Below, piece after piece: positions 1 to 41,383 of a stretch of 64,000 nucleotides of DNA. The DNA is from Hormiphora californensis (Eukaryota; Animalia; Ctenophora), in contig CM035359.1 of the NCBI GenBank assembly GCA_020137815.1, forward strand, positions 7,564,001-7,628,000, written 5' to 3'. The notes beneath the pieces are model-generated. The model was not told the origin of the DNA and ran no database searches. It saw only the letters and a list, made by a program, of their open reading frames with translations. Both the position numbers and the translations under genes were made by a program. Position 1 is the stretch's first letter; each line of letters starts with the position of its first letter.

Positions 1-2087
1 CAGGCAGCTGGAAAAAGATCATCAAATACCTACAAATGCTTGCGAAATGATTCTAATCAATAGCAATATTGAATGAGCCCCCTGTCACACGAAGTATCAT
101 GAAAACCAAGTTCATTCATTGAGGCCGGGGCGGTTAATTGACAAGCAAGCGGTGTACACTTTCAACTTCCAACTAACAAGATTTATAGTATAATAGTGGA
201 GGAGTGGAACTTATCAATTAGCAGCGGTATATTCTTTGAACAATGTGGATTGTTATGGTTATTAGGCGATCCTTAACCATACTATCTCCGGGGCATGAAC
301 ATCACGATCTTGTCATCAAAAGCAAACTAAATTGGTTAAATGAACTATGAAAAAGATAAAAAAGGAAAAGGGAGAGAGAGAGAAGAGAGAGAAAAAGAGA
401 GGGGAGAGAGAGAGAGAAGAAGAGGAGGAGAGAGGGGGGTGTTCTTTCCCCCCTCCCCTTTTTTTTGGGGGGGTTTTTCCCTTTTCTCCCTCCTTCCTTC
501 TGCTTCTTTTCCCTCCTTTTTTCTTTTCGCTTTCTCCCCCCTTTTTTGTTCTTTTTTTCCTGCCCGGCTTTTCCCTTTAGAACTGGGGGAAAGTTTTACA
601 TGAAAGACCCCTTTTTTCCCTATCCTAAATCCATATCCTGTAATTTTTAACAGCTTTTCCGCTTTTCCCTCCTTAACCCCTTAACCGCATTTTCCTTTTA
701 CGTTTTAAAAAAAAGGGATTGTTTTTAAAACTGCGTAATTAAAACTGAAAATGTTTGGGGTTTTTTTTTATAAAAATAGTAAATGAAAAATTTTTGTGAT
801 GCCAGACCGACCATTTTTTTAAAAAAGTTTGAAAATAAAGGGAAAAGTCTCCAAAACAAAATAAACGGAAAAAAAAGTCTATTCCTGCATGAAAAACTAA
901 TGCCACACTCACGGACCGTAAATCTGCAGATACTTTGATATAAAAAAAAGCCAGCCAGCTTACAGAAATTGAAATCTGTACTGCCTGGATCAATAAATTG
1001 TAAAGTTTCCGTGGTTATCAGGAGCATTGGATATTTGAAGAACGAATCGAAAAGACTGAAATAAATGCGTTTGCCCACGTATGACGTGAACTCGTTGGGG
1101 GACGGGACGGTGGGGGGGGGGGGGGGGTCCATTCACACAACATTGACGCAGTCTCACCACAGCGATATGTTTTGTCCGGCCCCTCATTCTCCGAGGTCTG
1201 TTCTGTTCGCGGCGAGGAGGGTTGTTTGGATTGTTAGTCTGGGGATTTTGTGCTACTAGTAACGTGAAGTGGTTTTGTGCTTGGGGGCGGTGGGGGGGGA
1301 GTGGGGATCGTGAGGTATTTTGGATTTTTGTGGGGAGGGTATAGAGTGTGCGGAGGGTTGTGGGTGGTGGGGTCTGTTTTCGGGGGGGAGCAATTCCGGG
1401 GGAAGGCCCCTCCCCCCCTTCTCTCCATGACTTGACAAGAAGCTGTGTGATAAATCACAATCTCACAATTCCCCGTCCTCCTCTCCCACCAACCACTCAC
1501 TAGCAACCACTCTACTTCCGAATTTCACAAAACAAAGACCACTGCAGCTCGTAACACGATACATGGGAGACATTCCGAGAGAGGGAGAGAGAGGGGGGAT
1601 AAAGAAGGAGGCCTTCAGAGAGAGAGAGAGAGAGAGAGAAGGAGATAACAACTCCCATAACTAGGAAATATGAGAGATATTAAACAGTGAGGGAATATAA
1701 TATTTGAGGGGGTTCCTCAGCTCCTACTCGTGTAGGATAATCGTGTAGCATGATAGGTTTCTGACATGTGTCATCATCGCTTGGAGAGGGGGGTCGTGAC
1801 ATGTGATCTAGCACTTAGCTATGATCATATCGGCCGTCCAATGCTATACGGCTGTCAGAGCATTGGCCATATTCTCATTTCGGAGCGTGCGAGAACTGTG
1901 GTCAGAGCCATCATGTTACGATGAAAAAGGGTTTCTCCGTGCGAGACTGAAGTTTGAAGCTTAAAAACCGGTTTGAGCGGCTCTTTGCAAGTAAAGTGGA
2001 GGGCTGCACTTGTGTAGCATTGAAGAGAGCTAGAGTGCAAATGTAAAATCTTAATGGAAGCATTGTAAGAGAGAGAGAGAAAGAGAA

Positions 2088-2152
<65 letters not shown>

Positions 2153-3212
2153 CGAGAGAGAGAGGGAAAGAGAGAGAGAGCGAATGGAGGAGGAGCTTCG
2201 TTCAAATTAAAAGCATGCAGCACGCCCACAATTCGAGCAAGCACAGAAGAGAGAATGGTCTTCAGTCTTCACTCCTTGCTATGAATGAGTGAATACGATT
2301 TTTCTTCTAAGTTACGAATTTAAAACACGTTATATAACTAAATATTAGAGAATAATACATGTTTACAAGCTTAATATACAGATAATTTTACAAAAACGTT
2401 TTACAACACACTATCAAAACAAAATATGAATACTTTAAATTGGATTTGGCTGGAATACTGACTGGACTGCTGAAACATTATATTATCACCCACTTTCAAA
2501 CACACACGGTCATGTCAACACGACTGCTGCAACACCTAGCAACCCCTCACATCACCATGACAACAGAGAGATACAACTCTCCAGTGCTACTCGATGTGTG
2601 GAGATTGGCGAGGTGTTGAAACTACTACATACACCGCCCAGAACACACCTTCTCTGGGCCATCACCTAGACCTGTAGGGATCATACAATACACAGACTCA
2701 TACATGCACTATAAACACCTCTAGGGTACCTCACCCTGGATAGTTCCAAGTGCCTTGTCAACAGACTCCAGAACTTGGAACACGGCCAGATTTGAAACAC
2801 CCTTGAATATTATAGTGACACGCTGTACAGACACATGTACGAGAGAGAGAGAAACAAACAATAATCTACCACAGAGTGGACACTTACGACACAGTGGTGC
2901 CCCAAAGTGGGCAATACAAGAGTTTTCTCTGACACCATCTTTTCTTAGAAGGAAATGCCACCAAAAAGAGGGAATTTCTCCTCGAAAATAGGAGAAAAAG
3001 AAGGGTTTGTGATCAGAGTCCATCAGCTCCAGTTTATAAAGGGGGGTTACACATTTGTGTGATTTACAGGGTTTAAAGGTTGGGCCACACCCACTGCATC
3101 TCTCCCCACAACATGGCCGCCCCATGGTAGCACACCAAGCGAGGGAGAGGGTTTATGAGGTGACCCAGGGAGAGATCACATTTCAGCTGATCTCAGATGT
3201 GGTGAGAGTGAT

Positions 3213-6200
3213 TTACAGGATCTGGATTCGGTTGTTCCAGCTGTCGACCACAACAAGACGTCCCTCGTTGTTCAACTCAACACAGCAGGGTCCATCGAAC
3301 TGGCCGAACTTCTTGCCTCGCTTACCGAACTTCTCCAGGAAACTGAAATAGGGAAAGAGTTGATAATTTAGTTATAAAGCTTTACAGAATCTAAACTTTC
3401 TTCTGTAAAATCGCAGGAGCCAATCTTTTTTGAGAGCTCTTCTTACCTTCCGTGGTTGTTGAATAGAGAGATCCTGCAGTTTCCATACTCCGAAACCATG
3501 ATCTGTCCATTGGCATCAACAGTGATATCAGAGGGTCCCAGGATCTGTCCCTTGCCCTTACCCTCCAGAACCTCTCCTCGGGACTCTCGGGGTGCGCTGA
3601 ATCGATCAAGATATCCACCGTCAAATCCGTAAATCTGGAATGTAGCAATTTGTTAGTTCAAACTTCAGTTAGCGATCGTTCGGGTTTTGCTAGAACTGTT
3701 GTCGCCTTGAACACAATTGAAGCTTGTTCATTTTGCCGGTGTGTTACCTTGATATCAGCGGGGCTGAACTGGGACACGTAGATGAGACCGAATGAATCGC
3801 AGGTGACTCCGACGGGCTGTTTCAGCTGGTACTCTTTGGGGTTATCTTCTCCTCCAACAACCCTCAGGAAATTACCCTGATGAGGAGAGAGGTTTAGTTT
3901 CAGAAAACTTGAGAAGTTGTCCTTGTTAAATGGGGCAGGTAGAATAATAGGTTCTGACCCATGGAGTCTGGCAAAGTTGGTTTGGTTTCGCGAAAAATGA
4001 ATAACTTATCGTACCCTGGGGTCGAAGATCTGGACTCGGTTGTTATCGGAATCAGAGACGATGAGGTAGTTGTCCTTGGTGATGCAGATCTTTCTTGGGT
4101 TCCTGAACTCTCCCTCAGCCTTGCCCTCCCGTCCGATGGTCCTGACAAACTTGCCCTGAGTGGTGAACACACTCAACCTGTTGTTTCCACTGTCCACCAC
4201 GTAGACGAATCCTGGGGGAAGAGAGAGAGGGTTAGGAAGGTCATTATAAGACAAAATTAAAAGCGAGGGAGAAAGGGGTTTATATTCATGATGTCATCAT
4301 TGCATCAGTAAAGGTAAGGGAGTGAGAGAGATCTAGAAAAATAATTACCCTGGCTATCAACGGCAGTATCAGTGGGGTTTGATAGTTCTCCCTTTCCACT
4401 ACCCTCTCGTCCAGCACCAATAATGTGAGAGAACTGTCCGCTCTTCTTCAGCACCTGCACTCGGTTGTTCTCTGAAAGGAAAGGATGGAATGAATAAAAA
4501 GCTTTCACATGATAGAATTAGATGACTGAATGCGGTAAGTTCAATCAAACATAGGACCATGTCTCCAACAGAAAAAAAGTACCTGTATCAGCGACGAACA
4601 TGTTGCCCTGCTTGTCGAATGAAATTCCCATTGGTTTCTTAAACTCTCCAACACCGTTACCGGGCTTGCAGTTGGGGGCACCAATAGCCCTCACTCCTAC
4701 AATAGGGAACACAATTATTAGAGGAACTTGTTTTATTTTAAACTTTGCTTGTGGAATTGAGTTTGAAAATGATATTTTCTGGTTCCCATACCTTGTCCGA
4801 CGTAGTAATCGGTTACATTTCCGTTCTGCTCATCTCCATCAACAGCAGACCTCAAAGTGGAGAACTCTCCGGGGCTGAGGGGCCTGCTGGCGGTCTGTCC
4901 TCGGCCACCTCCGTTCTGATCCTGTGCAGTCCTCTCCCTCATCTCCTTGATGGGCTGGGCGTTGTAGGTCTCCACAACGAACTTGCCCAGTCCATCAATG
5001 AAGGTGGTGATGATGGTCTCGTTGACCTTCTGGAACTCAATATTCTTCCTCTTAACACCAATGTCGAGGTCCACGTTCTTCAGCTCCTCCATTCGCTCGT
5101 AGATCTGTAGGTAAACGTGGCTGTCAATCGAAGTTTCCCTGAGTTGTTGGTTTTAGATCTGATAAAGATACTCCTATAATAACTAAGCCTTCACAGAACA
5201 GCGAAATATGGAAAGTTATACCAAGCCAAGTTCATGTGTTGCCACGTTAGATATGAGTCTCATTATCAATAAGTTGATGTAATAAATAGGGACAAATTGA
5301 GACTCGTTGATTTTATTTCAGGAATAACTCGACGTTTCGCCGTTCGACGGCATCATCAGGATAATCTCAAATTAATTTGTTTAAAGTAGTGTTGAAAAGT
5401 TTCAAACTTTTCAACACTACTTTAAACAAATTAATTTGAGATTATCCTGATGATGCCGTCGAACGGCGAAACGTCGAGTTATTCCTGAAATAAAATCAAC
5501 GAGTCTCAATTTGTCCCTATTTATTACATCAACTTATTATACCAAGCCTTTGTCTCAAGTACCTGGCTCTCTAACCCCTCAAAGGATAGCTAGTATTTTA
5601 CCTGGCTCTGTAACCCCTCAAAGGATAGCTAGTATTTTGCCTGGCTCTGTAACCCCTCAAAGGATAGCTAGTATTTTACCTGGCTCTGTAACCCCTCAAA
5701 GGATAGCTAGTATTTTACCTGGCTCTCTAACTCCTCTAAGGATAGCTATTATTTTACCTGGCTCTCCATGGTGAGGATATCAACATCAGATCCGTCAGTG
5801 AGAAGGTTGGAGACAAAGTCACATCCACTCTGGGTGCTCTGCATGGCTACAGTCAGCTCCTCCCTCTTAGCCTCCAACTGGGACACACTGGAGAGAGAAT
5901 AGAGATCAGATGATGTGATGGAACACAAACTCCTATGATTACCAAGTATTGTCATCAAATTGTGTAATAGTTCAAGATAAATTACCTGGCGGCCTTCATC
6001 TGCTCCACGGTGTTCAGAAGATGCTGTTCTCGGGCCTTGATGGAAGCCATAACTCGCTCAATCATAGTCCTGATATCGTTCTGGGCCTTCTTGGCTTGCT
6101 CCTACAAGAAATGTTTTGTTCCGGGAAGACTATTATTGAGAGATGGCCATTAGGATTGCAGTAGGCTCGATCTAGACCCTTGATTTTGTAAGAAGACATA

Positions 6201-19617: not shown

Positions 19618-21601
19618 TCCTGAATTAGTAATTAATTACTAATTATAATTGGTAAATATATATACCTCACTCTCGTTAATTAAGCTCGCATATAATTTCA
19701 AGAAACTTTTAAATAAGAAACTTTTTTTCTAGGAAACTACAGGTGTAAGCAATCCAAAAACAAAAAGAATTTCTCCTTTATCAAGAAACTAAACAAGTTA
19801 GGGGTGTTCTATTTTGTTGTGGTGTCTCTGAATTGTGTGATTTACATTTGAAAAGTTTCTTATAAAAAAGTTTCTTACTAAAGCGTTTCTTAAAAAACGA
19901 GAGTAAGGTATATGCAAAGCAAGCTCATAAAAATGTGATTTAATAGCTAATGAGAACAAGAAAGCGAGAGATCTAAGCTCGCTAAAATCCTTTCTATTTT
20001 CTTTAAAGCTGTCCATGGGGGGGGGGGGGGTCTCATGTTGGTTTTGTTGTTTTTGTTGTTTTTGTTGGTACACGAAATATGTACTAACAAACCACATATA
20101 GGTATACTACCAACAAACACCAACAAAACCAACAAAACCAACAAAAGTTAGTTTTGTTAGTTTTGTTTGTCAGTTTTGTTGGTTTTGTTAGTACTAACAA
20201 AATTAACAAAATTAACAAAACTAACAAAACATTTTGTTGGTTTTGTTTGTTAGTTTTGTTGGTTTTGTTAGTACTAACAAAACTAACAAAACATTTTGTT
20301 AGTTTTGTTTGTTAGTTTTGTTGAGATTTGTTAAAGTTTTGTTGACTCAACAAAACAACAAATCTCAACAAACTAATAAACCTCAACAAAACAACAAATC
20401 TCAACAAACTAACAAATATCAACAAAATAAAAAATCTCAACAAAACAACAAATCTCAACAAACTAACAAATCTCAACTCAACCAAAAAATCTCAACAAAA
20501 CAACAAATCTTAACAAAACAACAAATCTCATCAAAACAACCAATCTCAAGAAAACAAAAAAATCTCAACAAAACCACAAATCTCAACAAACTAACAAATC
20601 TCAACTCAAACAACAAATCTCAACAAAACAACAAATCTCAACAAAACAACGTACATATCTCAACAAACTAACAAATCTCAACAAAACAACAAATCTCAAC
20701 AAAACAAAAAATCACAACAAAACAACAAATCTTGACAAGTTGAGATTTGTTGGTTGTGTTGAGATTTGTTAGTTTGTTGAGATTTGTTGTTTTGTTGAGA
20801 TTTGTTGGTTGTGTCGAAATTTGTTAGTTTGTTGAGATTTGTTGTTTTGTTGAGATTTGTTAGTTTGTTGAGTTTTGTTGTTTTGTTGAGATTTGTTGGT
20901 TGTGTTGAGATTTGTTGTTTTGTTGAGATTTGTTGGTTGTGTCGAAATTTGTTAGTTTGTTGTGATTTGTTAGTCCGTTGAGATTTGTTGTTTTGTTGGC
21001 ATTTGTTAGTTTGTTGAGATTTGTTGTTTTGTTGAGATTTGTTGTTTTGTTGAGATTTGTTGGTTGTGTTGTGATTTGTTAGTCCTTTGTTACAAACAAA
21101 ACAACTAAGCCAACAAAATTCACCAACAAAATTCACCAATAAAGCCAATAAAACCAACAAAATTAACAAACAAAACCAACAAACAAAACCAACAAAATTA
21201 ACAAACAAAACCAACAAGCCAACAAAACCAACAAAACCAACAAACAAAACCAACAACAACAACAACAACAACAAAATGGATTTATATACCGACTAAATAG
21301 ACAAGTACTCTCGATTGGATCGAAGAGCAGTTGCCATTCATAGCGGTTCTCTCATCCTATCTTGACATATTGGTTGACAAAAGGTCTTAAATGGTAACTC
21401 ATACTGGTGACTTATAACTGACATATATAGTAGACTTTATTAACTCTCAACACTAGGTGACTGTGGGTGACAAGTATAATCAGAAAAAATAATAACAAAA
21501 ATGATAAACTGAAAAGTATCTTAGATTATAAAGAAATATGTGACAGCAGCAGGGGTGACCGTGTGAGAAACGGGGACTAATGAATAACCGAAAAGAAATT
21601 A

Positions 21602-24600
21602 TTAAAGACTGACGTCGAAAACCAAATAAGGTCTTTCAGAGAAGGTAACAGTAGCATCGAACAGGTAGGTCTTCAGGCGAATACGGAAGGAGTCCTCTGA
21701 AGGTGCGTCTCTAAGGTTCTCCGGTAGGTTGTTCCAGACATGGGGGAGATATTGGGATATTCTCCTTTTTCCCAGTTTGCTCACTTTCACATTTCCAGAA
21801 GGTAGCTTTAACTTGTAATGGTCTACTTTACAGCTCTGACGAGTAGACTTTTGCACTGCAGTATTTTCATCATGTTCCACTAGATCCTGAAGGTACTGAG
21901 GGGCACTTCCATAATAGATCTTGTACCCTAGTAAACAGATTTTGAAGAAAATCCTCTTCTCAATCGTAAGGATATGGGAATCACGGTAGAAGGGGTCCAG
22001 ATCAACTTTCCTCTCTCTGACTCCATGGATGTATCTTATTACTTGATTCATTAGTCCTTTCAGCGGCTTGATGGTAGAGGCCGGCAGGTTGAAATACAGG
22101 GCATTGCAATAGTCCACTTTGGATATGACCAGCTGGGAGGCAAGCATCAGACGTAGAGGTTTATCAATGAATCGGCGGATCTGCCAGAGGTTCCTCATAG
22201 TAACTCCAGCATTCCTCTTGACCATGGAGATTTGACGTTTCATATCCATTTGTTCATCAAGATAGATACCAAGGGTCTTTCCCGATTTTCCAGCCATGTC
22301 CATGAGGGAAATGATGTTCCCATTTAGCTCAAGAGTCAGGCCACTCTCCTCACGTACAGTATCCATCTTCTTCTTCTTTCCCAGGATAAGAAACTCAGTT
22401 TTATCCTCATTAACCATCAGTCTGTTCTCAATCATCCACGTTCTTACCTCCTCCAAACATTTCTCAATAATCTCCTTTGAACCTGTCCAGCCTTCCACAG
22501 GGCAGAATCCGATGTATATTGTGCTATCGTCTGCATAAAGTCGTATTGTGAGTCCATACTTCTTTACAATAGGTTCTAGTGGTTCCACATACAGGGCAAA
22601 GAGGACAGGACCAAGGAGAGAGCCTTGGGGTACTCCATATTTGAGAAAGAGCCTAGGTGAGAGGGCATCTCCAATTTTAACTTTATAGCTCCTGTCATTG
22701 AGATAACTTGTGAACCATTCGAGTACCGTTGATCTAATTCCAAACCGCTTCTCCAGCCTCTTCAAAAGCTGAGGGTGGTCGATGGTATCAAATGCAGCAG
22801 AAAGATCAATTTGAACGACTGCCACAACATTTCCTCTGTCCATTTCCCCAAGGACATCATCAACAACTCGCACCATGTGTGTCTCACAGCTGTGGTTGGG
22901 GCGAAAACCAGATTGGCAGTCACCTCGCAGGTCGTTTTTCTCCAAATGCTCATTTAGCTGTACATTGACAGCTTTCTCCGCTAGCTTGGACAGAACACTG
23001 AGATTCGAGACTGGTCTGTAGTTCGCAAGAGAGTCAACATCTCCAGATGTATTCTTGATCGTGGGCCTCACAATAGCCTCTTTCAGTCCTGACGGGAATA
23101 CACCACTCTGCAAAGAAGTGTTTACGATCTTGGTAAGCACTGGTAGTAGTGTAGGGAGAAGCTGCTTCAGCAGAGAGGTCGGGATTGGGTCCAAGTCACA
23201 GAACTTATCCGGCAGGCTCTTTACAAGGCTTGCCACTTCATCTTCAGTCATAAGACTGAACGTCTCAAATCTTTCTGTCTCTCCTTCAATAGCACCGAAC
23301 TCAGTTGATTTCTTTTCACCCAACTCTTCAATCTTGACACCAATCTTCTTCTGTAGTTTATCAATCTTGGACTTGAAAAACTCTCCAAACTCAGTTGCTA
23401 GTTTCTCCGGGTTGACCATATCTGGGAGGATAACATTGGAGTTACCCAGTAGCTTGCTCAGTTGTTGGTTGAGCCTCTTTTGATCGCGTCCACAGAGTTC
23501 GATATTTCTTCTGGTGTATTCTGATCGTTTTCTGACCTCCATCTTATTGAAAGCTGACCTTAGTTCCACATACATGGCCCTTAGCTGCGGCTTCTCTTTA
23601 GTCTTGTCCTTTCTCCACTTTCTCTCAGCACGCCGCTTCTTCCTCCGGAGGGTTAGCAGCTCTTCATCCATCCATGGTGTATACTTCTCTTTCTTCCTTC
23701 TCTTCTTCATTGGACAGTGCTTATCAACCAGGACTAGCAACGTTCCATATAACTTCTCAACAAGGCTATTAACATCCTCTTCCTCAGCAAGTGAGGTAAA
23801 CAGTCCACTGGCTTTGAGATCCTCATTAAAACTCTCCACATCCACCTTCGAAAAGTCCCGATACCAAATTGTTTCCGGCCGTTTCCTCTTACTAATCCTC
23901 GTAGTCAGTTGTAGGTCCACTGTAATAAGATGGTGGTCTGAAGTAGTTCCCTCCTCTAAGACCCTCACTGGTTCCAGACAATCTGCTACAGTAGCATCCA
24001 TCAGGGCTAGGTCCAGAGTACCTCCATGTCTGTGGGTTGATACCAATGGAACAATCTGTTTGAAGTCAAACTCCTCGATCATCTCCTGTAGTTTTTTTGG
24101 ATAAAATTCATCAGGCCTTTCCATGTGAAAGTTGAAGTCTCCCATGATTAATGGTGTCCCGACTTTACAGTTTAGTTCCTCAAGATATCCCTTGAATTCA
24201 TCCAGGAAGTGGCTCTGGGTATGAGGTGCCTTCTTCGAGTACGGTGGCCTATAGATGTTTACTAGCCGGTACATCTCACTAGCATTTCCAACAGTGGTCT
24301 CTGTACACTCAAAGGTCTTGAAACACTTGGTAGATCCAGATTTAACACCCAGGTCCGCTCTGTATACCACTGCTACTCCACCACCAATCCTCTGCTTCCT
24401 CGGTGCCGAGTGTATTTCCCATCCTCTTTCCTTTATCTCATGATGTTTAGCATTGTCACCTTTCCTCAGGTAGGTCTCTTGAAGAAGACAAATATCAACA
24501 AGCTGGTCCTCAAGGTGTTCCAGTACACCAGCAGTCTTATTGACAAGGGAGTTGCAGTTCAATGTTCCAACTCTTAGTGAGTTCTCCTTCTTTCCAAGAA

Positions 24601-24631
24601 GTCTCGTGCCTTCCGACTGTACTCGTTTTTT
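21602..24631 (-). CDS. LINE ORF2: APE endonuclease plus reverse transcriptase (no AUG start)
   Basis: LRVGTLNCNSL, LQET, GGGVA, MGDFNFH and SDHH (APE); YRPVSNL, QSGFR, DLSAAFDTIDH, GVPQGSLLGP and YADD (RT); C-terminal DYCNALY...IFFKI resembles L2. The frame stays open upstream of the annotated TTG into the ORF1 overlap. Confidence 0.95.
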   Translation of the reverse strand, partial: KKRVQSEGTRLLGKKENSLRVGTLNCNSLVNKTAGVLEHLEDQLVDICLLQETYLRKGDNAKHHEIKERGWEIHSAPRKQRIGGGVAVVYRADLGVKSGSTKCFKTFECTETTVGNASEMYRLVNIYRPPYSKKAPHTQSHFLDEFKGYLEELNCKVGTPLIMGDFNFHMERPDEFYPKKLQEMIEEFDFKQIVPLVSTHRHGGTLDLALMDATVADCLEPVRVLEEGTTSDHHLITVDLQLTTRISKRKRPETIWYRDFSKVDVESFNEDLKASGLFTSLAEEEDVNSLVEKLYGTLLVLVDKHCPMKKRRKKEKYTPWMDEELLTLRRKKRRAERKWRKDKTKEKPQLRAMYVELRSAFNKMEVRKRSEYTRRNIELCGRDQKRLNQQLSKLLGNSNVILPDMVNPEKLATEFGEFFKSKIDKLQKKIGVKIEELGEKKSTEFGAIEGETERFETFSLMTEDEVASLVKSLPDKFCDLDPIPTSLLKQLLPTLLPVLTKIVNTSLQSGVFPSGLKEAIVRPTIKNTSGDVDSLANYRPVSNLSVLSKLAEKAVNVQLNEHLEKNDLRGDCQSGFRPNHSCETHMVRVVDDVLGEMDRGNVVAVVQIDLSAAFDTIDHPQLLKRLEKRFGIRSTVLEWFTSYLNDRSYKVKIGDALSPRLFLKYGVPQGSLLGPVLFALYVEPLEPIVKKYGLTIRLYADDSTIYIGFCPVEGWTGSKEIIEKCLEEVRTWMIENRLMVNEDKTEFLILGKKKKMDTVREESGLTLELNGNIISLMDMAGKSGKTLGIYLDEQMDMKRQISMVKRNAGVTMRNLWQIRRFIDKPLRLMLASQLVISKVDYCNALYFNLPASTIKPLKGLMNQVIRYIHGVRERKVDLDPFYRDSHILTIEKRIFFKICLLGYKIYYGSAPQYLQDLVEHDENTAVQKSTRQSCKVDHYKLKLPSGNVKVSKLGKRRISQYLPHVWNNLPENLRDAPSEDSFRIRLKTYLFDATVTFSERPYLVFDVSL

Positions 24632-25791
24632 AACATCTCAGCTCCGGCTGTTCTGCTCATCAATCTCTCCTTCTCCATGATAAAGAAGGGACATTGGAAA
24701 CTGTTCGCTGTGTGGGTGGTGGCATTGAGCTGATCGATCTTGCTTCGGCTACTCTTGCAGTTTGCACAGCATCTGGAGTCAACTTTTCTATCTTTCTTCA
24801 CTTGACAATCCTTGTACCGATGATTTCCAGCACAGTAGGTACAAACTGGATCACCGCTGTCTCTCCTGGGGCACATCACTGAGTCTGACTTGTGACCATA
24901 GCGTTGACACTTGAAACATTGAACGATGTGGAATCGATCCTTCACAATGTGGATTTGAAAATCAAGGTTAATTCTGTCATTCCTTTTGCGAACAATCTCC
25001 CGTATCTTTTTTGACATCTGGACAACTGCATATCGATCCTCCTTATGAAGAAAGATGACTTTCAGTTCCTCTTGGTGACTTTCAACCTGCTCTTTGATTT
25101 CCTCATTCTTCCTCAGTATTTCACTGTACACTTCCTCAGCAGTTGTAATTTCTCCAGCAATGTCTGAGATTGTAACTTTGGGATTAAGCTTCTTGGTGGT
25201 CAGAGTGGCTGTTGACGTATCAAATTCAGATTTCAGCAGTTCTTCAGCTTTGTCTCGCTGAGACTTGTCCTTGAAAACTAGATTGGTGTCCTCTTCATTC
25301 GAGCTGGTTCCATCAACTGGGATTGACTGCAGAGTCTTTCGTACCTTCGCCTTTACAACTTTCCACTTTTCCAGTCCAACTTTCTCAAGTTTGAGGGTGT
25401 GCTTCTGTGGTGTCTTCTTAGGGCTGGGGTTGAGCAACTTTCCAGCATCATCAGTCTTCTCCTTGCCGTTTATCGCCTTCTGTATCATGTCTGGTATGTT
25501 TGCAAAACACTCCCGCATCGCCTCAAGCTCCTTGAGAACCTGTTCAGACCTATCCTGTCCCACTACTGTTCCTTCTTCTGACTTGGTCTTCACACGGTCA
25601 TCCTGCTGTTTGTCCACCATTCTCAATAGGTTAATAGCGAAATTCCATAGAATATCTTTAGTGATACCCGCTGGGGGAGCTTTTTTACCTTGCAAGATTG
25701 GGTCCATATCCACAGGTAGATTATCTTTCATAAACGTGTCCAACTCTTTCCTCGTCCATAACTTTAGCGGGATTGCCTTCAATGTCATCAC
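24574..25791 (-). CDS. LINE ORF1, gag-like with zinc knuckles
   Basis: CFKCQRYGHKSDSVMC, CTYCAGNHRYKDC and CANC...H...C motifs near the C-terminus; lies upstream of ORF2. Confidence 0.9.
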   Translation of the reverse strand: MMTLKAIPLKLWTRKELDTFMKDNLPVDMDPILQGKKAPPAGITKDILWNFAINLLRMVDKQQDDRVKTKSEEGTVVGQDRSEQVLKELEAMRECFANIPDMIQKAINGKEKTDDAGKLLNPSPKKTPQKHTLKLEKVGLEKWKVVKAKVRKTLQSIPVDGTSSNEEDTNLVFKDKSQRDKAEELLKSEFDTSTATLTTKKLNPKVTISDIAGEITTAEEVYSEILRKNEEIKEQVESHQEELKVIFLHKEDRYAVVQMSKKIREIVRKRNDRINLDFQIHIVKDRFHIVQCFKCQRYGHKSDSVMCPRRDSGDPVCTYCAGNHRYKDCQVKKDRKVDSRCCANCKSSRSKIDQLNATTHTANSFQCPFFIMEKERLMSRTAGAEMLKNEYSRKARDFLERRRTH

Positions 25792-26001
25792 TAGCTACGA
25801 TCTGCAGGATAAATTCAAGGCCTCGCCTAACGACAACTAGTGTCAATCCTCCGGGTAAGATCCGGTCTTCTCTTGTCTTTGGCCTTGTCTTTCTCACACA
25901 GAAACTGTTACCAGTCTCTGATAAACCCAGAAAAGACAAAACAAAAAAGTATAAAGAGCCGAATAAATACCAAAGAACTTAGCGAATTGGGAAAACGAAA
26001 C

Positions 26002-26043
26002 CTCAAATTAATTTGTTTAAAGTAGTGTTGAAAAGTTTGAAAC
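26002..26043 (-). other. Spliced-leader exon copy at the LINE 5' terminus
   Basis: Reverse complement is GTTTCAAACTTTTCAACACTACTTTAAACAAATTAATTTGAG, 42/42 identical to 5399-5440. Confidence 0.85.
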
Positions 26044-29385: not shown

Positions 29386-32300
29386 ATGTCGTCAGTTAAT
29401 ACAAGTGCTGTCGTGGATATCTCAGAGACCAATGTTCATGGTATGTGGTCTGCTGTTGAGGATCAATATAATATATCGATTGCAAAAGATATATCATGAA
29501 ACTCATATCAAGCTAAATGTGGCCCATTATTTCATACAGGTATTTTGCACAGTGGTAATGGGGAAGAGAACCCTATTGAGGGATTCAGACAGGATAGGGT
29601 CACTGATATCATGTTCTGGGTTCTTGTAATTTTCTCTCTGGGACTCTTCTACCTGCTATACAAGTTCTTAAAAGGTACAAAACAGACGTCCAATGTACAG
29701 TAAATCTCACCAGTTCATTCAAATGTTTTTATTCAAATGTTTTTGTGTTTATAGATTGTAGGGTGCTACTTATCACCTACATACAACTTTAGCTCCTATC
29801 AATACCTCCCCCAGTTTTTACAGTTCCTACCCTCCCCCTCCCTACAGTGTATAGACCCTACACAGCGGCCCAGATGCTCTACAAACGAACAAGCCTTGAA
29901 AAAGCAGAGTTCATCACAGTACAAGATGTCACCTCTGGTTACCACTACTTCTGTCGTGTACACACTATCAAGATCCGACACGAGGGATCATTTGAGGGGA
30001 CAGAGAGAGTCCCTGATATTACAAACGTTGCTAACAGCAGCAATACCGCAGAAGAGGTGAGAGGAAATGCTTTTTAATTTCTCACTGAGATGTTTTTAGG
30101 AGAACAACTAGGATGTTTAGATAGCACCGGCAGAGTATCGCGATATATATCTTTTCACGTGTTCATATCAACCATTCTTGAAGAGTGTGAACATCTTTGT
30201 GTGTCTGCCACATGATTATGCACAACTAATTGTTAATATCAAGGGTTCGTTTGATCACCGATTCATTACTGATATATACCCCACACCTACAACTCTATAT
30301 TCTATCCCCCACCCCTCTCAGGTTAGTTTGAACCTGTTCCTGGTGAACAACAGGGTATGTGAGACTGACAGTATAAAGTATGTTGAGTTTCACTGTGTTA
30401 GGTTTGTCTACAGCAAGCCCTTCAATGCATTCTACCCACTGACTGGGCTGGATGGAGACAATCCCATGAGACGACCCAGAATTACAAAGAGTGGGCTGAA
30501 ATCGGATGATGTTAGGATCCTACAAAAGGTATGGAACACTGAAACATCGAACATGAGCCTGTCACTGATCATTGCCCTAGACATGTGGCATGGATGTTCC
30601 TTTGATACCAGAAATATATCCTACCCTAATTACATTATCCCTCCCATGATCGCATAACTGACCTAGGTTTACGGACCGAATGTACTGGATATAAAAGCTG
30701 AGTCGTATCTGGAAATATTTACCAACAACATTCTTGATCCTTATTATGTCTTCCAGATATTTACACTTATTCTCTGGTGGGTATAGTCCCTTCAAAACTG
30801 TATGTTGTTTGTTTGTGAGTGCTGCGTAGCTGGGGGCGACCTACCCAAACTTTAACCAAACTGCGTAATAAAACTTTTATGACAAAATCACTACGATCAT
30901 ATTACATGAAATTAGATCATGTGGAACATGCATGATATTGATCGAGAATTATACACTTCTTGTACATATGTGCTATACGCTCCTTTGCTAAGTAAAGGGG
31001 GGTGACACAACACACACTCTGTGCAGGTGCTATGCGGGATACTACTACTACTGTGTTGGTGTGATACTAGTAGCCAGTATCATCATCTCAATAGCCCTCT
31101 TCATCCTGAGGAGGGAGGAGGTAAGACAACAGAAAGATCTGGTTATGGACAACTCAGTGACAGTTACAAGGGACGGGTTCCAGTATTACATTGGGTTTAG
31201 TGAACTAGTGCCTGGTGAGTAGTTCACTATGATCTGGATCACAAACATCTCTACAGTAAACATATTTCAGATTTCTTGAATGTCATGTAGTAACACCTCC
31301 AATCTCCATTCCAATAACAGGTGATATAGTTGTCATGTACTAACACCTCCATTCCAATACCAGGTGATATAGTTGTGCTGAACAAGAGTTCCCGGTACCT
31401 AACATACGATGGTACAGTGATACAGGGAGGACTATACATTGACAATGCTAATCTAAATGGAAGTACTAAGACGTATTACAGAGAGACAGATCCTACTAAT
31501 AACGGCAGTCATTATCACAAACTAACATTACATGGACAGAAGGATAGTGTCTTCGCTGGAACACGGGTAGGTGTTATCCAACACTGTGTTTTATAAAGGT
31601 CTTGATTCGAGGTGCAGAAGGGTATAGGGTAGCCTAATTAAACTCTTACCTCGCACCGTGTTATATTGGGTTTTCAAATCCTCAATTCCCCTACCCCCTA
31701 ATAAATCCCCAATGGCGTCGAAACATCTGACCGGGTATTATGGGTTTTTAAATCCTCAATTATCCCAGGTGACGGTTCTACAACCAGATGAATCAGGGGA
31801 GGACGTGCTAGTTCTCGTTGTCAACACAGGCTTCCTAACTAGAAAGGGTCAGGTACTCAAGGACGCCAGAACACCTGACAACTACCAATACTTCGTAGAC
31901 AGAGACTCACTCCTCTATCTAAAGTTCCTCCTGGTGCTGGCTGTAGTTGCATTTGGGTTGGGAATAGCAGTGTTAGTCTGGATTCCTGACTGAGGCTTTA
32001 GATGTCTGGGAGGCTGTTATAGCATCACTTCGACTCTCAACTACTTGCCATACCCCCATCTCTACCCCTCGCCCTGACAACTGCCTTTGTCTGGTCAGTC
32101 AAGAGGCTGAGCAGGGAGCACGTTGGTTCACTAAAGTTCCGCCGCATCCCTGTGGGAGGGAAGGTCACCTCAGTGGTGTTTGACAAGACTGGGACACTAA
32201 CAACCTAACAAGATGGAGTATCACAGGACGGATAGAACCCTACTCAGACGAAGCAGGGTCCCTTGAAATATCCGGTATTGACACATCACGTGACCTAGCC

Positions 32301-34172
32301 CCAGGATGATGTTCTCTACCTCATGGCGACGTGTCACTCAGTCACAGCAGGCAGTCACTCAGAAACCCAGATATAGGGAATTGGAATGCTTGATATGGCC
32401 ATGTTCGGGGTGAGTCAGTTTGATTTAGTGGAGACTGGGAGGAGAGTGAAGGTGTTTCTCTGGGAAAACAGACACACTTGGGGAGATGAAGATAGAGTTG
32501 ATCAGGAGGTTCCCCTTTACATCTGATCTCCAGTTCCAAGGTGTTATCGTGTATGTAGCTGCAGAGGACAGACATGTGTACTATGCCATGGGTAAACCTC
32601 AAATTGTCCTGGGATTCTGTGAACCTACCACTATCCCTGCTCTGACATCAGATAGGATCACCTACTACACACGTCATGGTTACACCGTGGTTGCCTATGG
32701 CAGCCAGGGACCTGCAACTCAAGGAGACTACTGATGAGGTAAAGTACGTTACAGTACCAAGATGAAGTTTATTGGTCTGCTCGTGTTTGGGAGATACTCT
32801 GGCTGACTGGAGCTAAAGAGGTCGTCAGTTCACTTCAGCTGGCCAAGTGCTCACTGAAGATGTGCACGGGGGACTCCCTGGACACAGCAGTGTACATAGC
32901 ACGCCAAGTGGGGCATTCCTCCCTGAGACGGCTAACTCCCATTCTAACCGAGACAGGGTTATACAGATGAAGGCGAGTATTGATGAGGATGACCAACTAG
33001 AGGTTGAAGCAGTTGATTATGATACTGGTGAGCCTTATAAACTAGCCTCAGCATGGGGAGAGTATTGGGACCCACCCAACTTTGTATTGGACGGGAAATC
33101 GTTTGACATCCTGGACGATTACGGTGGTTCTCACCTAGATCGTATCCTAAAGGCGGGAAAAGTGTTCGCAGAAATGAAGCCGCGATACAAGAAGGCGTAC
33201 GTGGAACTGCTAAGAAAGATTGGTAGTCTGACATGTATGGTGGGAGATGGTTTCAATGATAACGATGCCCTCAAAGCAGCCGATGTGGGTTTATCTCTTC
33301 TTAACAGTGAATCTGGTCTAGCAGCACCATTCTACAGTAAACGGAAGGATATCCGCTCAGTGACGGTGATACTGAACGAGGGAAGGACCATCATGACGCA
33401 GATCCTGACGATCTTCATGTTTACTGCGTGTTACTCAGTCCTGGGAATGGTGGGGGAACTCATGTTGTACTGGTTCTTTTACGAGATGAGTGAGGCAGAG
33501 TGGATCTACATTGATCTCTTCCTTGTGATGAGCATTGACCTAATGTTGGGTTACTCAGAGAGCCGTGAAACCATAGCAACCCGACGCCCGACAAAGTCGT
33601 TTTTCAACAGAATCCGTCTGTTTTCCATGTTAGCATTCCTCATTGTGTGTGTGACGGTACAGTTCCTTGTGTTGTTCTACCTCCAAGACCAGGAGTGGTA
33701 TGTGGCAGTTGAGACCAGTGTGGAGGAGCTCACAGCGGGGTCCATGGAGGCAACCTACATCTTCCTTCTCCTCATATTCCAGGTAAATATAGGATATGTG
33801 TTTCGTGATGGATGTGTAATAACATTGATTTAGTTGATCCGAGCACTCTTCTCCTGAGTGGTCTTTAAGTTATAGATACTTGACTAACTTCCCTCATTTC
33901 AGCTTACCTACCCAGCTATTGTCTACACTTTGGATCACGAGCCGATATACAGGAACACCCTCATGATGTGTTTGATGGTGGTCCTCTACGCCATCAATGC
34001 CTACCTTGTTCTCTTCTCTGCACAGATAATTAACAAACTATTCGAATTCAACATGTCCCCCTCATTCCTCTTTAGAGTGCAGATCTTAGCGATCGCAGCA
34101 GGAAACTTGGTGGTTAACATTTTTGTGCAGATTATTTTCATTTTCGTTGATCGAAAAGAAAGTAAGCGTTAG
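29386..34172 (+). CDS. P5B-type ATPase (ATP13A-like), divergent; frame-disrupted as assembled (assembly error or pseudogene)
   Basis: ELVPGDIV, TGFLTRKGQ, IPPSLP, FDKTGTLT, MATCHS, MCTGD, FAEMKP..K, MVGDGFNDNDALKAADVGLSL, AAPF, NEGR and C-terminal TM helices. Several frameshifts, mainly at 31980-32920. Confidence 0.88.
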
Positions 34173-35840: not shown

Positions 35841-37800
35841 TTACGGTGGCAGATTCCGGCCAAGTGTTTTTTCAATCAAGTGAAATGTTTTGTATGAAGC
35901 TTTATAAAATTTTTATTTCAAAATAAAAATAAACATGTCGTTAAAATTATTGGCCGAGATCTGCCATGCCACTTGCATCTCGGCAAGGATTCTAAAAAAC
36001 CTTGGCCAGAATCTGCAACCTGCGTGGCAGTTGTCGGCAAATATACTGAAACTTATTTATATCAAAGCGAAAACCGCTGTACCTGACTAATTTTGATACG
36101 CTGAGTCACGTAAGCAATCCCTCAAAGGTCGGGAAAGTGTCCTAATTAAGCATAATTGGGTCTAATTGACTCACTGAAAGTTCTTATCGGCACGGCACAG
36201 TACATTCCAACGTTACTTCCTGCTAGTGTTGGTACCATTGTTTCGAGAGTAATACTGCTACTATGTGAGACTGATCTCACTGTGCATGTCAGTTGTCACC
36301 AACTGCTAGTTTTCCATGAGGCTAGTCGTTGTCGGCAGGATTTTATACATTTATATTATTTATTAATATCATTCGGTCCAACCAACACTTTTTGTACTCG
36401 AAGGCTCGGGAAGTCACTAGGCTAGGCTTTTGCAACTTGATCAGTTGATCTGTATTTTCTCTGTCAGCTGTTGCATTTCCTTTGGCCCTCATTCAAGATA
36501 TTTTAACAGGATGCCAAACACTTAGTGTGAACTCATCAAGAACAGGAGTTGCAATGATAGCGGGAAGATATAGAAAATACATCCTCTCTGTCCTTGCTTC
36601 TCTTATTCTCCTACGTTATCTCTCCGCTCCTCTTGGCCCTCAAGACCATATTCAGACATTATCAGCCCAAGAATTGTCAGTCAGGAATTCAACAGCATCT
36701 GATAGAGCTGTAAAAGAGAGGAAGTCGTATTTTGCAGTTGTTTTGGTCCTTGATCACAAGTGAGTTTAGCCTATATATATATAATATCATCAAATTGATT
36801 TCATGTTTCATTTACTAATGACCATTAGTCAATACATGCTATATTTCGCGACTTGTTCAATACCATGTAAATACATGGTTTCATTCCCTAACAATTTCCC
36901 TCACGGCAGGAGAGAAGCCAGGGAAAACGCCCGAAATTACTGGAATAATGAGACGCTTTGGAACTCAGTCCTCAGCCCTGAACACCGCATCAAGTTTATT
37001 TACGTCATAGGCAGTGATACAGATGTTTCTCTGTTGGAAAAGACTGAAGGTGAATCTGTTTACCAGGCAGATTTCCCTGAATCTCGTCAAAACTTGAAAT
37101 TCAAACTCTTCTCAGCATTCAAATGGGTCAACGAGACTTATGATTTTCAGTACATCATCAAAACTGATCTTGATGTGGTGATGAACTACACTTTATGGAT
37201 AAATGCGATAGTTTCCCGGCCTGATCAACCAGTACTCTACACGGGATATATTTGCCATGGACATGCAGATGCTGAGTACCCCTGGTGCTCTGGGATGGGA
37301 TATGTCCTCCATCACTCTGTTATCCCCACTATTTTATCATTCCCAGAGAGTGACTATGATATTCCAGAAGATAGGACGGTGGGGAAAATATTATCAAAAG
37401 CGGGTCTAGAGTTTTCGGGGCTGTTTTTCGGGGGGTCCAGGAAGTTGAAAGATCTAAATTGGCCCATTTCATACAGGCATATGATCGTGTATCACTGCGT
37501 GAATGCTGAAGCAGGGTTTAGAGTTGTGTTGGCACAGGTTCCAGCTCTCCATTTTAATGGGAACACTAACCATATGAAGGCGTGCTGGGAACACTTTTTC
37601 TTGAATATTTCCCGCTTTGAAGATGAACGATTAGTACATCAACTGACCTGATCCACCCTTGTTTACATACTTGTTACATTCAGCGTATCAAAATTAGATA
37701 TAAATAAGTTTCAGCTTGTGGGAAATAAAAATTTTATAAAACTTCAACAAAAACATTTCATTTGATTGAAAAAGCACTTGGCCGGAATCTGCCACCGTAA
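35841..37800. mobile_element. TIR element enclosing the GT31 gene (Pack-type)
   Basis: Inverted repeats TTACGGTGGCAGATTCCGGCCAAGTG..TTTATAAAATTTTTATTT (35841-35918) vs 37723-37800, plus a second inverted block ~36047-36104 vs ~37680-37714. Flanked by AAGA (or TA). Confidence 0.75.
36554..37651 (+). CDS. GT31-family beta-1,3-galactosyltransferase-like protein, two exons
   Basis: N-terminal TM anchor (YILSVLASLILL); intron 36760-36909 is in frame; REARENAR..W, FIYVIG, ESRQNLKFK, YIIKTDLDV (DxD), YPWCSGMGYVL and PEDRTVG motifs. Confidence 0.88.
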
Positions 37801-38280: not shown

Positions 38281-39603
38281 GGAGAAATTGAAAATTTTTC
38301 CCCAATGAAAACGCGTGGCCGATATAAAACAAATTTTGCCGCGCGTTACAGTTTATAGCCGCGCGCCCCTCATAAAATTTCAATTGTTTGTGCGCGCGCA
38401 TTTTACTCCGCAAGTGTCAGATCGTGCGCGCCACGAAGTTGCCCCTCGCAACGAAAGTGTGACCAAAATGGTCCCTCTACCGATTAGTTAGTACAAGGTG
38501 GGCCACGGATTGTTGGTCATGGTTAGCGAGGTGGTGCGTCAAAACGGTGATAGTTGTGAGATTAAAAATTATGGGAGCACTCTGGATCAATTCCTTGGTA
38601 ACTTTTTCCATATTTTTTTGTCAAAAATTCGAAAATTCATTTTTCATTCCTTCATTCATTCCTTCATTCATTCATGATGTGAGCATCCTAATTTTCCATC
38701 ATTATGCTATTTTTCTTTGGCTTGAATTTATCTTTACAATGAGCACCATGAAAATGAAATTGAAGCACCAGGTCACTCAGCATGGTGCGTATTCTAAGGG
38801 AGGTCGCGCGGCGCTAGTGCTGGGCGAGGAAATTATGTGGTTTTTTGAGGGTAGTGAATATCACCACCGTTAAGTATAAACGGTTCGAGTACTAGAGGAA
38901 GTATCACTCTGAAACTTTGTAGGGATGCTAGATAGACTATATACTTGGCCGGGGTATGAAATCTTTAAATTTGGACAAAATATGGTGATCTAGCTACCTG
39001 AAGGAATTGATGAAATTCAAAGATCTCATATCCCGGGACGTAAAATACTATTTTAGGCATGCTTGCAAAATATGAACTTGAAATCTTGAGAAATGAAAAA
39101 ACTAGACACTAATTACAGTAGGTGACCAGGGAGGTCATCCGAAGCGAACTCCATGTGTGAAACCTTCGCGCGCTACTTTTAGTCTGCCCAATTAGCAATT
39201 GGGGCCATGGGGCCTAATTGATTATCTGGTGTACATTCTGGGTTGTAATTTGGTTGCCAAGGCTCTCTAGACAGTTTTAGCAGACAATCAGACAAGCTTT
39301 TCTGTTCTGGTTGATGCTGACAATTGACATCTCACTAGGTTGAAGAGAGAATTTTGCTAGTAAATTGTGTTACTTGCAAAACGGTCCCACTTTGCGCGGG
39401 CTGACGCAGTGTACACTGTACAGCTGCAGTACACTGCGTGGGGTGTGTCGATCGAGGTAGATTTCAAAATCTCTATTCTCTCCACATCTAGTTCTACATC
39501 AATTCACGTCTACATCATGATATTGTTTAATCCAGTACATTCAAATCAGTAATGAGTAATCTCCGGGATGTATATTTAATTGTTTGTCAGTACCTTGACC
39601 CCT

Positions 39604-40086: not shown

Positions 40087-40907
40087 TAGGGTGTGCTAAG
40101 TGAAAATTTTGTCGACTTGGCCAATAAGTTAAGGGTAGATATGAAACTATGGACAATTGTCTACTAAATCCTGAAAACGGAATTGGGGTAGTGTATGTCA
40201 ATTACGTGGGCCAGGCGATTAAAAAAGTTTACTTTTTTACCGAAAAAAGGTAAATATGTGTGTTTTACACCAGTGTTTGCCATGTTCTTTATATCAACTT
40301 TTTATAGACAGGGTCGTGATCAGCGGTTTGATACCGATCAGAATGGATGTGTATCATGAAAGTTAGCCAAAGTTAATTTTTGACCTGAAAATGTTCATTT
40401 TGGACCAAAAATGTTCATTTTTGACTAAAAATGTTCATTTTAGTCATTTTCTTCTATTTTGAGAGCTTTTTCATGAACGGGATCGTGTTCAGCAGGTCAA
40501 AATTAGTCGGTTACAACCGGAATTTGCATTCCGACAAATAAAATCTTAAAAAGTTAAAATTCGTCTCCACTAATACTGCAAAGTAGGAAAATGTGCAAGA
40601 AAAAAAAGATGAAACAAAAAAATTTTCATTATAAAATGGAGTTCTGAAGGTGCAGACTGGAAAAAATGGTTGTACTGAGTCTCATGAGGCGATTCATATG
40701 TGTGGTTTTTTCGAAATAACGCCCCAAAAAACATTTTTTGATATGAATATGCCCATATATGGGCATACATCGGCCCACGTAATTGGGCCAGGGTAGGACT
40801 AAAATTTTTTTACCAAATGTTTTAGAATGATCGTAGGAACTCATTCTAGGGGTAAACTATGTGAAAATTGGATTTGATTTATGAGTTGGGAAAAATAGCA
40901 CACCCTA
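40087..40907 (+). mobile_element. hAT-type MITE, copy 1
   Basis: TIR TAGGGTGTGCTA / TAGCACACCCTA; 8-bp TSD ACCTACAC at 40079-40086 and 40908-40915. Confidence 0.9.
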
Positions 40908-41055
40908 ACCTACACCCATGACACACACCATCTCTCCCATCCTTTACCAGATCCTACATTTCCCTCCTTACCTACCCCATGTCTCCCATCCCACCACTCT
41001 CTCGTGTTTCTCGGTAGAAGTAGGGGGTAGATAGTGTGTGAGAGAAAGAAGAAAG

Positions 41056-41133
<78 letters not shown>

Positions 41134-41333: not shown

Positions 41334-41383
<50 letters not shown>

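What the first reader, a model, noticed from the sequence alone, without database searches (positions are those of the whole stretch)
5216..5548. SL-capped hammerhead palindrome: a Penelope-type insertion folding back on the SL's own hairpin
Seen: perfect 135-bp arms around one base (C5403), a 12-bp TSD, and each arm reading SL-ATTATC-hammerhead core-AATAAA. The symmetry axis lies inside the SL 5' end, AGTTT-C-AAACT, which is self-complementary. Known: Penelope-like elements carry minimal hammerheads in pseudo-LTRs and often insert with an inverted pLTR. Inference: reverse transcription ran to the SL cap, and the cDNA end snapped back on the SL hairpin to prime the second arm, which would be an SL-encoded route to inverted pLTRs. 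Helix I is only about 2 bp, as if trans-splicing 6 nt upstream of the core replaced or disabled ribozyme processing. Arm identity implies a very recent event, and the host pre-mRNA would contain 135 bp of dsRNA.
Basis: partly seen in the sequence, partly recalled or inferred. Interest (0 to 1): 0.86.

Follow-up and report, generated by a model that had tools for sequence, protein, structure and literature searches.

The report
Trans-spliced Penelope retrocopy joined head-to-head
In a comb-jelly intron, two copies of a short hammerhead-bearing repeat, each starting with the animal's spliced leader, sit head-to-head between a 12-base target duplication; they likely come from a Penelope-type retroelement RNA that was trans-spliced, copied from both target strands and joined through the leader's self-complementary tip, which would show in a living genome that these elements copy processed sense RNA.

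Summary
In detail: perfect 135-bp arms around C5403, a 12-bp target duplication, the published ctenophore spliced leader (SL) and a minimal hammerhead on each arm. Public contigs show a multi-copy family in another sample of the species and in a second organism. It has two recurrent 3' ends (5227/5228 and 5268/5269), head-to-head copies with other, asymmetric centres, and a commoner form with a branch point, pyrimidine tract and AG exactly where the SL joins. One allele lacks the insert. So the SL was trans-spliced onto the repeat's own acceptor; Drosophila virilis Penelope has an intron end at the same place. Snap-back does not reproduce the locus. Tail-arm-first predicts G at 5403, not C, and short-arm-first cannot make the tail. 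Two cDNAs annealed through the 11-nt SL tip fit every base (duplex -7.5 versus hairpin -0.3 kcal/mol). No RT/GIY-YIG ORF could be linked, no contig spans the palindrome, and ribozyme activity is untested. Verdict: a new variant of a known kind, useful as an in-vivo strand marker for Penelope integration.

The parts
5216..5227 (+). Left copy of the 12-bp target-site duplication
   Evidence: flank contigs of X5 and X11 match up to 5227 and stop or diverge there (records 10 and 18)
5228..5267 (-). 40-bp tail on one arm only; its 36-bp core 5228-5263 starts with ATG and is open for 12 codons (possible start of an element ORF, inferred)
   Evidence: recurrent ends at 5227/5228 and 5263
5268..5402 (-). 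Left arm: SL, ATTATC, hammerhead, AT-rich body
5331..5359 (-). Minimal type I hammerhead core, left arm
5366..5408 (-). Spliced leader of the left arm, full length from base +1, with G instead of C at leader position 6 (the axis)
5398..5408 (.). 11-bp overlap shared by both leaders (AGTTT-C-AAACT); C5403 is the axis and the only strand marker
5398..5440 (+). Spliced leader of the right arm, identical to the published ctenophore leader minus its first G
5441..5446 (+). First exon bases after the trans-splice acceptor; 5' strand of helix I
   Evidence: acceptor form seen as a loose end behind 5367 in X5, X11 and X12
5447..5475 (+). Minimal type I hammerhead core, right arm; self-complementary ACGU in place of helix III; predicted cleavage after C5475
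   Evidence: matches the min-HHR description in PMC4209133
5404..5538 (+). Right arm, without tail, ending at the family's second recurrent end
   Evidence: records 14, 15, 16, 21
5537..5548 (+). Right copy of the target-site duplication (2-nt TT overlap with the arm)
5105..5757 (-). Host intron of a B-box/NHL (TRIM-NHL-like) gene that holds the insert
   Evidence: RNA contig of X7 joins 5107 to the upstream exon (table 7); Pfam NHL and B-box hits in neighbouring exons

Best explanation
This is a recent 309-bp insertion of two head-to-head copies of a leader-capped, hammerhead-bearing repeat, likely made by a Penelope-like element enzyme that primed reverse transcription from both nicked target strands and whose two cDNAs would then have annealed through the self-complementary first 11 bases of the spliced leader. 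Step 1 (shown at DNA level; the RNA event is inferred): the repeat's own 3' splice site, 6 nt before the hammerhead core, accepted the spliced leader in trans, giving a capped sense RNA. Step 2 (inferred): a GIY-YIG endonuclease nicked both strands 12 nt apart. Step 3 (inferred from the two recurrent ends and from in-vitro work on anole Poseidon): one RT started at the tail end and the other about 40 nt upstream, on the same RNA or on a second one. Usually the tail-primed cDNA stops after about 36 nt, leaving a lone inverted tail; here both cDNAs ran to the cap. Step 4 (fits the sequence exactly; inferred): the two 3' ends paired over 11 nt with one G-G mismatch, repair kept the base of the tail-less strand, and gap filling gave the arms and the TSD. 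The hammerhead is predicted to be inactive as a monomer and locked in a 135-bp hairpin in the host pre-mRNA.
For: The acceptor form (a TACTAAT branch-like motif, pyrimidine tract and TAG directly before ATTATC on the sense strand) appears in 3 runs from 2 samples of 2 organisms. In X6 a contig at depth 5123 leaves the window's sequence at 5367, against depth 82 in the SL bin. An SL-hammerhead join with 38 and 33 letters on its sides is in organism B (record 15). Tail ends at 5227/5228: X1 4 contigs, X6 7, X12 15, X10 1. Tail-less ends at 5268/5269: X6 record 21 and X12 records 14-16. Tail-only pieces ending at 5263: 4 contigs each in X6 and X12. Three joints put a tail-only arm against an SL start or mid-body (5253>5395, 5246>5397, 5262>5493); these need two primings. 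The two-cDNA model gives 0 mismatches in 309 nt. Duplex -7.5 versus hairpin -0.3 kcal/mol at 37 C, -10.4 versus -1.3 at 15 C. Published parallels: both strands cleaved and extended, two internal RT starts bounding the tail, predicted dimer (PMC11167929); inverted pLTR with tail, 8-10-bp TSD and overlap at the junction (PMC3846280); intron end at helix I (PMC4209133); 34-37-bp repeat at the ORF start (PMC2377424).
Against: No RT/GIY-YIG ORF was linked. No genome is held, 0 exact hits in metagenome and viral contigs, no Penelope domain in 91 of 119 window ORFs scanned, and the protein search gave one 92-aa hit with no Pfam family. The case against tail-first snap-back at this locus is one base, which could have mutated or been miscalled. 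No contig spans the palindrome, and the junction contigs of X1 carry only 5 and 26 element letters, below the tool's 31-letter bar. The insert-free allele in X5 differs from the predicted empty site on the right side (one contig, side 25). No RNA contig with the SL-hammerhead join was listed in the 2 RNA runs laid (X7, X10). The tables were cut (192 and 64 loose-end rows not shown), and contig depth is not a copy number.
Confidence: 0.62

Rival explanations
1. One reading: one cDNA primed at the tail end ran to the cap, snapped back on the leader hairpin and was copied; the second arm was then cut or stopped at the tail boundary, perhaps by the element's endonuclease.
For: Reproduces 308 of 309 bases. 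Self-priming has been proposed for Penelope junction palindromes (PMC3846280), and the tail was ascribed to endonuclease-mediated resolution (PMC8557442). A further SL-SL head-to-head contig with nearly the same centre is in organism B (record 14).
Against: Predicts G at 5403; C is seen. The hairpin is -0.3 to -1.6 kcal/mol. It cannot make tail-only arms joined to longer arms (3 joints). The short-arm-first version gives 32 mismatches, all in the tail.
Confidence: 0.16
2. The source is not the pLTR of an autonomous element but a short non-autonomous, retrozyme- or SINE-like unit with its own outron, mobilised in trans by a Penelope enzyme or, less likely, by a LINE.
For: No ORF was found. All three frames close within about 55 nt of the core. 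Non-LTR retrozymes are described as pLTR derivatives (bioRxiv 10.64898/2026.07.22.740005). A full-length SL-capped APE-RT LINE lies in the same window.
Against: No tandem array here and no poly(A) or simple-repeat 3' end. The 36-bp ATG-started tail and two start sites match Penelope ORF starts. Hammerhead-containing contigs thin out towards the 5' side, as expected for 5' truncation of longer units. This rival shares the joining mechanism with the best explanation.
Confidence: 0.13
3. A single SL-capped copy inserted first, and a later DNA-level fold-back or replication template switch at the leader palindrome duplicated it in inverted form.
For: The axis is a self-complementary 11-mer and the arms are identical.
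Against: The TSD encloses both arms, each arm ends at a recurrent end of the family, and the tail has no template in the short arm.
Confidence: 0.05
4. Assembly or library artefact (fold-back chimera).
For: Perfect palindrome; no contig spans it; the best-matching DNA run may be the source of the assembly.
Against: A chimera would mirror the flank as well. Here the flanks are unique, colinear with an intact host gene and carry a TSD, the arms are unequal, and similar joints occur in other samples.
Confidence: 0.04

Closest known systems
Drosophila virilis Penelope pLTR (PMC4209133 parts 1-2 of 4 read; PMC2377424 passages)
   Same: Hammerhead with 2-bp helix I and a splice acceptor at its 5' end; 34-37-bp repeat at the ORF start; inverted terminal copies; genomic copies keep the unspliced form.
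   Different: There the acceptor closes a 75-bp cis intron. Here it takes a trans-spliced leader, and a minority of genomic copies carry the spliced form.
Adineta vaga Pen2a/Pen2/Pen3a elements (PMC3846280, passages)
   Same: Head-to-head inverted pLTRs, palindrome or overlap at the junction, 31-bp tail on one arm, 8-10-bp TSD, pLTR pairs acting without an internal ORF.
   Different: The authors favoured self-priming on an antisense template. The leader here can only come from a processed sense RNA, and the junction overlap is host-derived.
Anolis Poseidon PAc (PMC11167929, parts 1-2 of 4 read)
   Same: Two internal RT start sites bounding a 30-40-nt tail; both target strands cut and extended; AUG at the start of stem II; hammerhead cleavage not needed for insertion.
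   Different: In PAc that AUG opens the long ORF. Here it meets a stop after 12 codons. No leader; the joining step was not studied there.
SL-tagged retrocopies of dinoflagellates (search listing and abstract starts only)
   Same: A genomic leader remnant marks reverse transcription of trans-spliced RNA.
   Different: Those are host retrogenes; no head-to-head joining through the leader is mentioned in what I saw.
Non-LTR retrozymes (PMC7229834 passages; bioRxiv 10.64898/2026.07.22.740005 part 1 of 5 and passages)
   Same: Short, non-coding, type I hammerhead, low GC, pLTR-related.
   Different: Those are head-to-tail tandem arrays yielding circular RNA; this is an inverted pair with a capped leader.

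Membership tests
Penelope-like elements (EN+) | ORF with telomerase-related RT and GIY-YIG endonuclease | tested here: inconclusive
   Not in the insert, not in 91 of 119 window ORFs; no genome held; scans and protein search found no linked ORF
Penelope-like elements (EN+) | Minimal type I hammerhead in the terminal repeat (extra base after A9, G10.1-C11.1, palindromic 15.2-16.2) | tested here: met
   against the description in PMC4209133; no Rfam model matches
Penelope-like elements (EN+) | 30-40-bp tail on one end; two RT start sites | tested here: met
   40-bp tail; recurrent ends at 5227/5228, 5263 and 5268/5269
Penelope-like elements (EN+) | Head-to-head inverted, variably 5'-truncated copies with TSD | tested here: met
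   this locus and 7 other joints
Penelope-like elements (EN+) | Retention of unspliced forms in genomic copies | tested here: met
   acceptor form outweighs the SL form in X6 and X12 by contig depth; depth is only a rough guide
Penelope-like elements (EN+) | Partial tandem with direct pLTRs around the ORF | not testable with these tools
   contigs on the element are mostly under 100 nt; loose ends show 30 letters
Hammerhead ribozyme | Self-cleavage (as dimer) | not testable with these tools
   the monomer fold with an open core is 6.4 kcal/mol above the minimum
SL trans-spliced RNA | Leader replaces sequence upstream of a 3' splice acceptor | tested here: met
   acceptor and SL forms diverge at the same AG; not seen in RNA contigs (2 runs laid)
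SL RNA gene | Leader exon followed by a GT donor and intron part | tested here: not met
   ATTATC follows the leader here; a GTAAG continuation is seen in other contigs of X1
Non-LTR retrozyme | Head-to-tail tandem units with hammerheads | tested here: not met
   no tandem copy in the window; other loci unknown

The most novel reading that the evidence does not exclude
In these comb jellies the self-complementary tip of the spliced leader is a built-in sticky end for reverse transcripts. Penelope enzymes prime on both target strands, and any two cDNAs that reach the cap can anneal through it, including cDNAs of different leader-capped RNAs. That would make head-to-head retrocopies and chimeras, with the axis base recording which strand survived repair. 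It would settle in vivo that Penelope inverted repeats arise by twin priming on processed sense RNA, not by self-priming on antisense RNA, and would explain part of the 718 genomic leader copies.
Probability: 0.3. Interest if true: 0.8.

Novelty: new variant of a known kind. Interest (0 to 1): 0.6.

Why it matters
How Penelope-like elements make their inverted repeats and tails, and whether they copy sense or antisense RNA, is called open in PMC3846280 and PMC8557442; PMC11167929 leaves the steps after priming unvalidated. A host leader can only be added to sense RNA by the spliceosome. [quoted passage not shown] Nine full-text searches listed no paper whose title or abstract start describes an SL-trans-spliced Penelope element. 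Two relevant papers (Derelle 2010, the 2017 Terminon paper) and the Hormiphora supplements could not be read, and repeat databases were not searched. The inverted-repeat-with-tail architecture itself is already known.

Tried and rejected
No whole genome was held. Rfam: 0 hits at gathering score; at E<=10 only hairpin look-alikes, rejected. The exact core pattern had 0 hits in metagenome and viral contigs. A relaxed leader-end plus core pattern gave 115 loci from 15 of 64 parts of the collection; BLAST found no real match to the arm or to the leader (best E 0.09), so these are other hammerhead-like repeats or chance. A protein search with the one nearly open frame scored 2 candidates and kept one 92-aa product sharing 18 residues that end exactly at the tail end. 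It has no Pfam family and is read as a frame running across another short copy, not as the element ORF. Folding z-scores of leader, arm and tail were unremarkable (-0.46 to 1.07). X1 contigs that cross the SL join with small gaps were not counted as separate copies, because that run's differences are nearly all indels and may be read errors. RNA runs X7 and X10 gave no listed SL-hammerhead contig; absence in contigs proves nothing. 8 of 22 listed run slots were used (X1 twice, X5, X6, X7, X10, X11, X12); X5/X6 and X11/X12 are one sample each. The neighbouring LINE was rejected as the likely mobiliser because the insert lacks its simple-repeat tail and shows Penelope-type ends. Three look-ups of earlier findings returned nothing.

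Full report
1. Observation. The window reads as described: arms 5268-5402 and 5404-5538, 135 nt, 100% complementary around C5403, and a 12-bp direct repeat at 5216-5227 and 5537-5548. Positions 5398-5440 match the 44-nt leader published for the ctenophore Hormiphora californensis, less its first G; that paper counts 718 genomic leader copies (PMC8527503, passages). The left arm read on the minus strand has the same leader with G for C at position 6, so both leaders are complete from base +1 and share 11 bp. Six bases later comes CUGAUGA-U, a 5-6-bp helix II and GAAACGUC. Such a core occurs twice in the window against a shuffle mean of 0.11 (100 shuffles, maximum 2). It has the features listed for Penelope minimal hammerheads: an extra base after A9, G10.1-C11.1 and a palindromic 15.2-16.2 (PMC4209133, parts 1-2 of 4). 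Rfam has no matching model. The key addition is asymmetry: 5228-5267 extends the left arm by 40 bp.

2. Setting. The insert lies in intron 5105-5757 of a minus-strand gene with B-box and NHL exons; an RNA contig of run X7 joins the flanking exons. No Penelope domain was found in 91 of 119 ORFs of 85 aa or more; the 28 left out were mostly repeat frames and frames overlapping other ORFs. A second leader at 26001-26043 caps a full-length APE-RT LINE.

3. The family. No genome was held, so contigs of public runs were laid on the locus (7 different runs of 22 listed). Summed contig depth on the arm is roughly a hundred times that of the flank in X1 (1000-3600 against 13) and some tens of times in X11/X12, a second organism. 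The tool warns that this is no copy number; I take it only as multi-copy.

(a) 3' ends recur at 5227/5228 (X1 4 contigs, X6 7, X12 15, X10 1) and at 5268/5269 (X6 record 21; X12 records 14-16). Tail-only pieces stop at 5263 in 4 contigs each of X6 and X12. Position 5263 is the A of an ATG that opens 12 codons to the tail end, like the 34-37-bp repeat at the start of the D. virilis Penelope ORF (PMC2377424, passages).

(b) In X5, X11 and X12 a contig leaves the window's sequence exactly at the leader's final AG and continues, on the sense strand, as a TACTAAT motif, a pyrimidine-rich tract and TAG: a 3' splice site. In X6 a contig of depth 5123 diverges at the same base, while the leader bins hold 82 and 0; in X12 the figures are 754 against 120 and 103. 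Leader-joined copies are thus a minority (edge effects apply), but one in the second organism bridges the join with 38 and 33 letters (record 15).

(c) Seven further head-to-head joints are listed (5253>5395, 5246>5397, 5262>5493, 5304>5479, 5309>5501, 5320>5494, 5328>5483), each from one contig with 20-30 letters on the short side where given. All are asymmetric, and four have 1-10 extra letters at the joint. Leader-to-leader contigs across the centre occur in X1, X5 and X11; the X11 one (depth 116, 2 substitutions, 1 gap) goes on into other sequence after one leader.

(d) One X5 contig joins 5227 to 5576, and an X11 contig follows the flank to 5227 and then diverges, so the insert is absent from those alleles. 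The X5 allele differs from the predicted empty site on the right. No contig spans the palindrome; the X1 junction contigs carry 5 and 26 element letters.

4. Mechanism. Both arms have their antisense strand continuous with a target 3' end, the geometry of priming from both strands. I built three models from window slices. Tail-arm-first snap-back gives one mismatch, G for C, at 5403 itself. Short-arm-first snap-back gives 32 mismatches, all in the tail. Two cDNAs annealed over the 11-nt tip give 0 mismatches if repair keeps the tail-less strand's base. The cDNA tip folds to -0.3 kcal/mol at 37 C (-1.6 at 10 C); two tips pair at -7.5 (-11.0). The three joints with a tail-only arm need two primings whatever the centre. 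In vitro, anole Poseidon protein cleaves and extends both strands, starts at two internal sites that bound the tail, is predicted to be a dimer and does not need hammerhead cleavage (PMC11167929, parts 1-2 of 4). I therefore favour twin priming with end-to-end annealing (0.62). One base can mutate or be miscalled, so tail-first snap-back keeps 0.16.

On the ribozyme: the two proximal pairs of helix I come from bases shared by spliced and unspliced forms. In D. virilis Penelope the intron end likewise abuts a 2-bp helix I. The leader's 3' end can pair weakly with the bases after the cleavage strand, and by eye the unspliced tract can too (ATTTCA with TGAAAT). So trans-splicing changes the distal helix, but nothing here shows that it disables cleavage. 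A monomer cannot form helix III (ACGU, no loop), and in the host pre-mRNA the arms would form a hairpin of about -230 kcal/mol. Two AATAAA hexamers fall on the host strand; any effect on the gene is untested.

5. Comparison and membership. It works like a Penelope pLTR pair: hammerhead, tail, inversion, TSD and retained unspliced forms are all met. Formal membership needs the RT/GIY-YIG ORF, which I could not link. Rotifer Penelopes show the same inverted, tailed, TSD-flanked layout with junction palindromes; the authors read these as self-priming on an antisense template while leaving a sense template open (PMC3846280, passages). A full-length host leader on both arms requires sense, spliceosome-processed RNA. 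It is not an SL RNA gene (no GT after the leader) and not a tandem retrozyme at this locus.

6. Novelty. The architecture is known; the trans-spliced 5' end and the host-derived cohesive tip did not turn up in nine searches (listings and abstract starts seen). Two relevant papers were not held and the Hormiphora supplements could not be seen; they may bear on this. Verdict: real, a new variant of a known kind, interest 0.6; 0.8 if the leader tip proves a general joint for heterologous cDNAs (probability 0.3).

Noticed in passing
window 21270-26043, minus strand: Apparently intact LINE (ORF1 406 aa with a weak zinc knuckle, ORF2 1011 aa APE endonuclease + RT) whose 5' end is the spliced leader lacking its first base, set in a GTT/GTTT microsatellite. 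A second retroelement class copied from trans-spliced RNA, which could account for some of the 718 genomic leader copies. The leader is followed by GT here, but not by the GTAAG seen after leaders in X1 contigs.
   Followed up: partly
window 5560-5765: 39-bp tandem repeat (about 5 units) that duplicates the host exon end and its GT donor (CCAG|GTAAAA on the minus strand); the X7 RNA contig uses the first donor. Each unit also has an AG just upstream, so micro-exon or alternative donor use is possible.
   Followed up: partly
record 14 (X11), laid on 5368-5439: Leader-to-leader head-to-head contig at depth 116 that continues into sequence unlike the hammerhead: other leader-capped RNAs may be joined in the same way.
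   Followed up: no
loose ends behind 5271 (X1, X6, X10): A sister family shares the tail but has a different body upstream.
   Followed up: no
loose ends before 5398 and behind 5440 (X1): A uniform upstream sequence (29 contigs, agreement 0.98) ends right at leader base A+1, and a GTAAG continuation follows the leader in others. These are likely SL RNA genes, and suggest the published first G is not templated.
   Followed up: no
window 40087-42265 and 44547-45551 (also 38492-38782 with 45543-45832): Large fold-back elements with 95-98% complementary arms of several hundred bp, MITE- or foldback-like; no hammerhead core with a helix II stem found in them.
   Followed up: no
window 30580-33830 and 36785-37648: Exons of a P-type ATPase-like gene (E1-E2_ATPase and HAD hydrolase hits, below curated cut-offs) and a galactosyltransferase domain.
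   Followed up: no
L003-L005, L058, L060 and many others: Abundant hammerhead-like repeats with covarying helix II, some in 69-bp tandem units (L060) or on opposite strands (L047, L066, L080); unrelated to this element.
   Followed up: no
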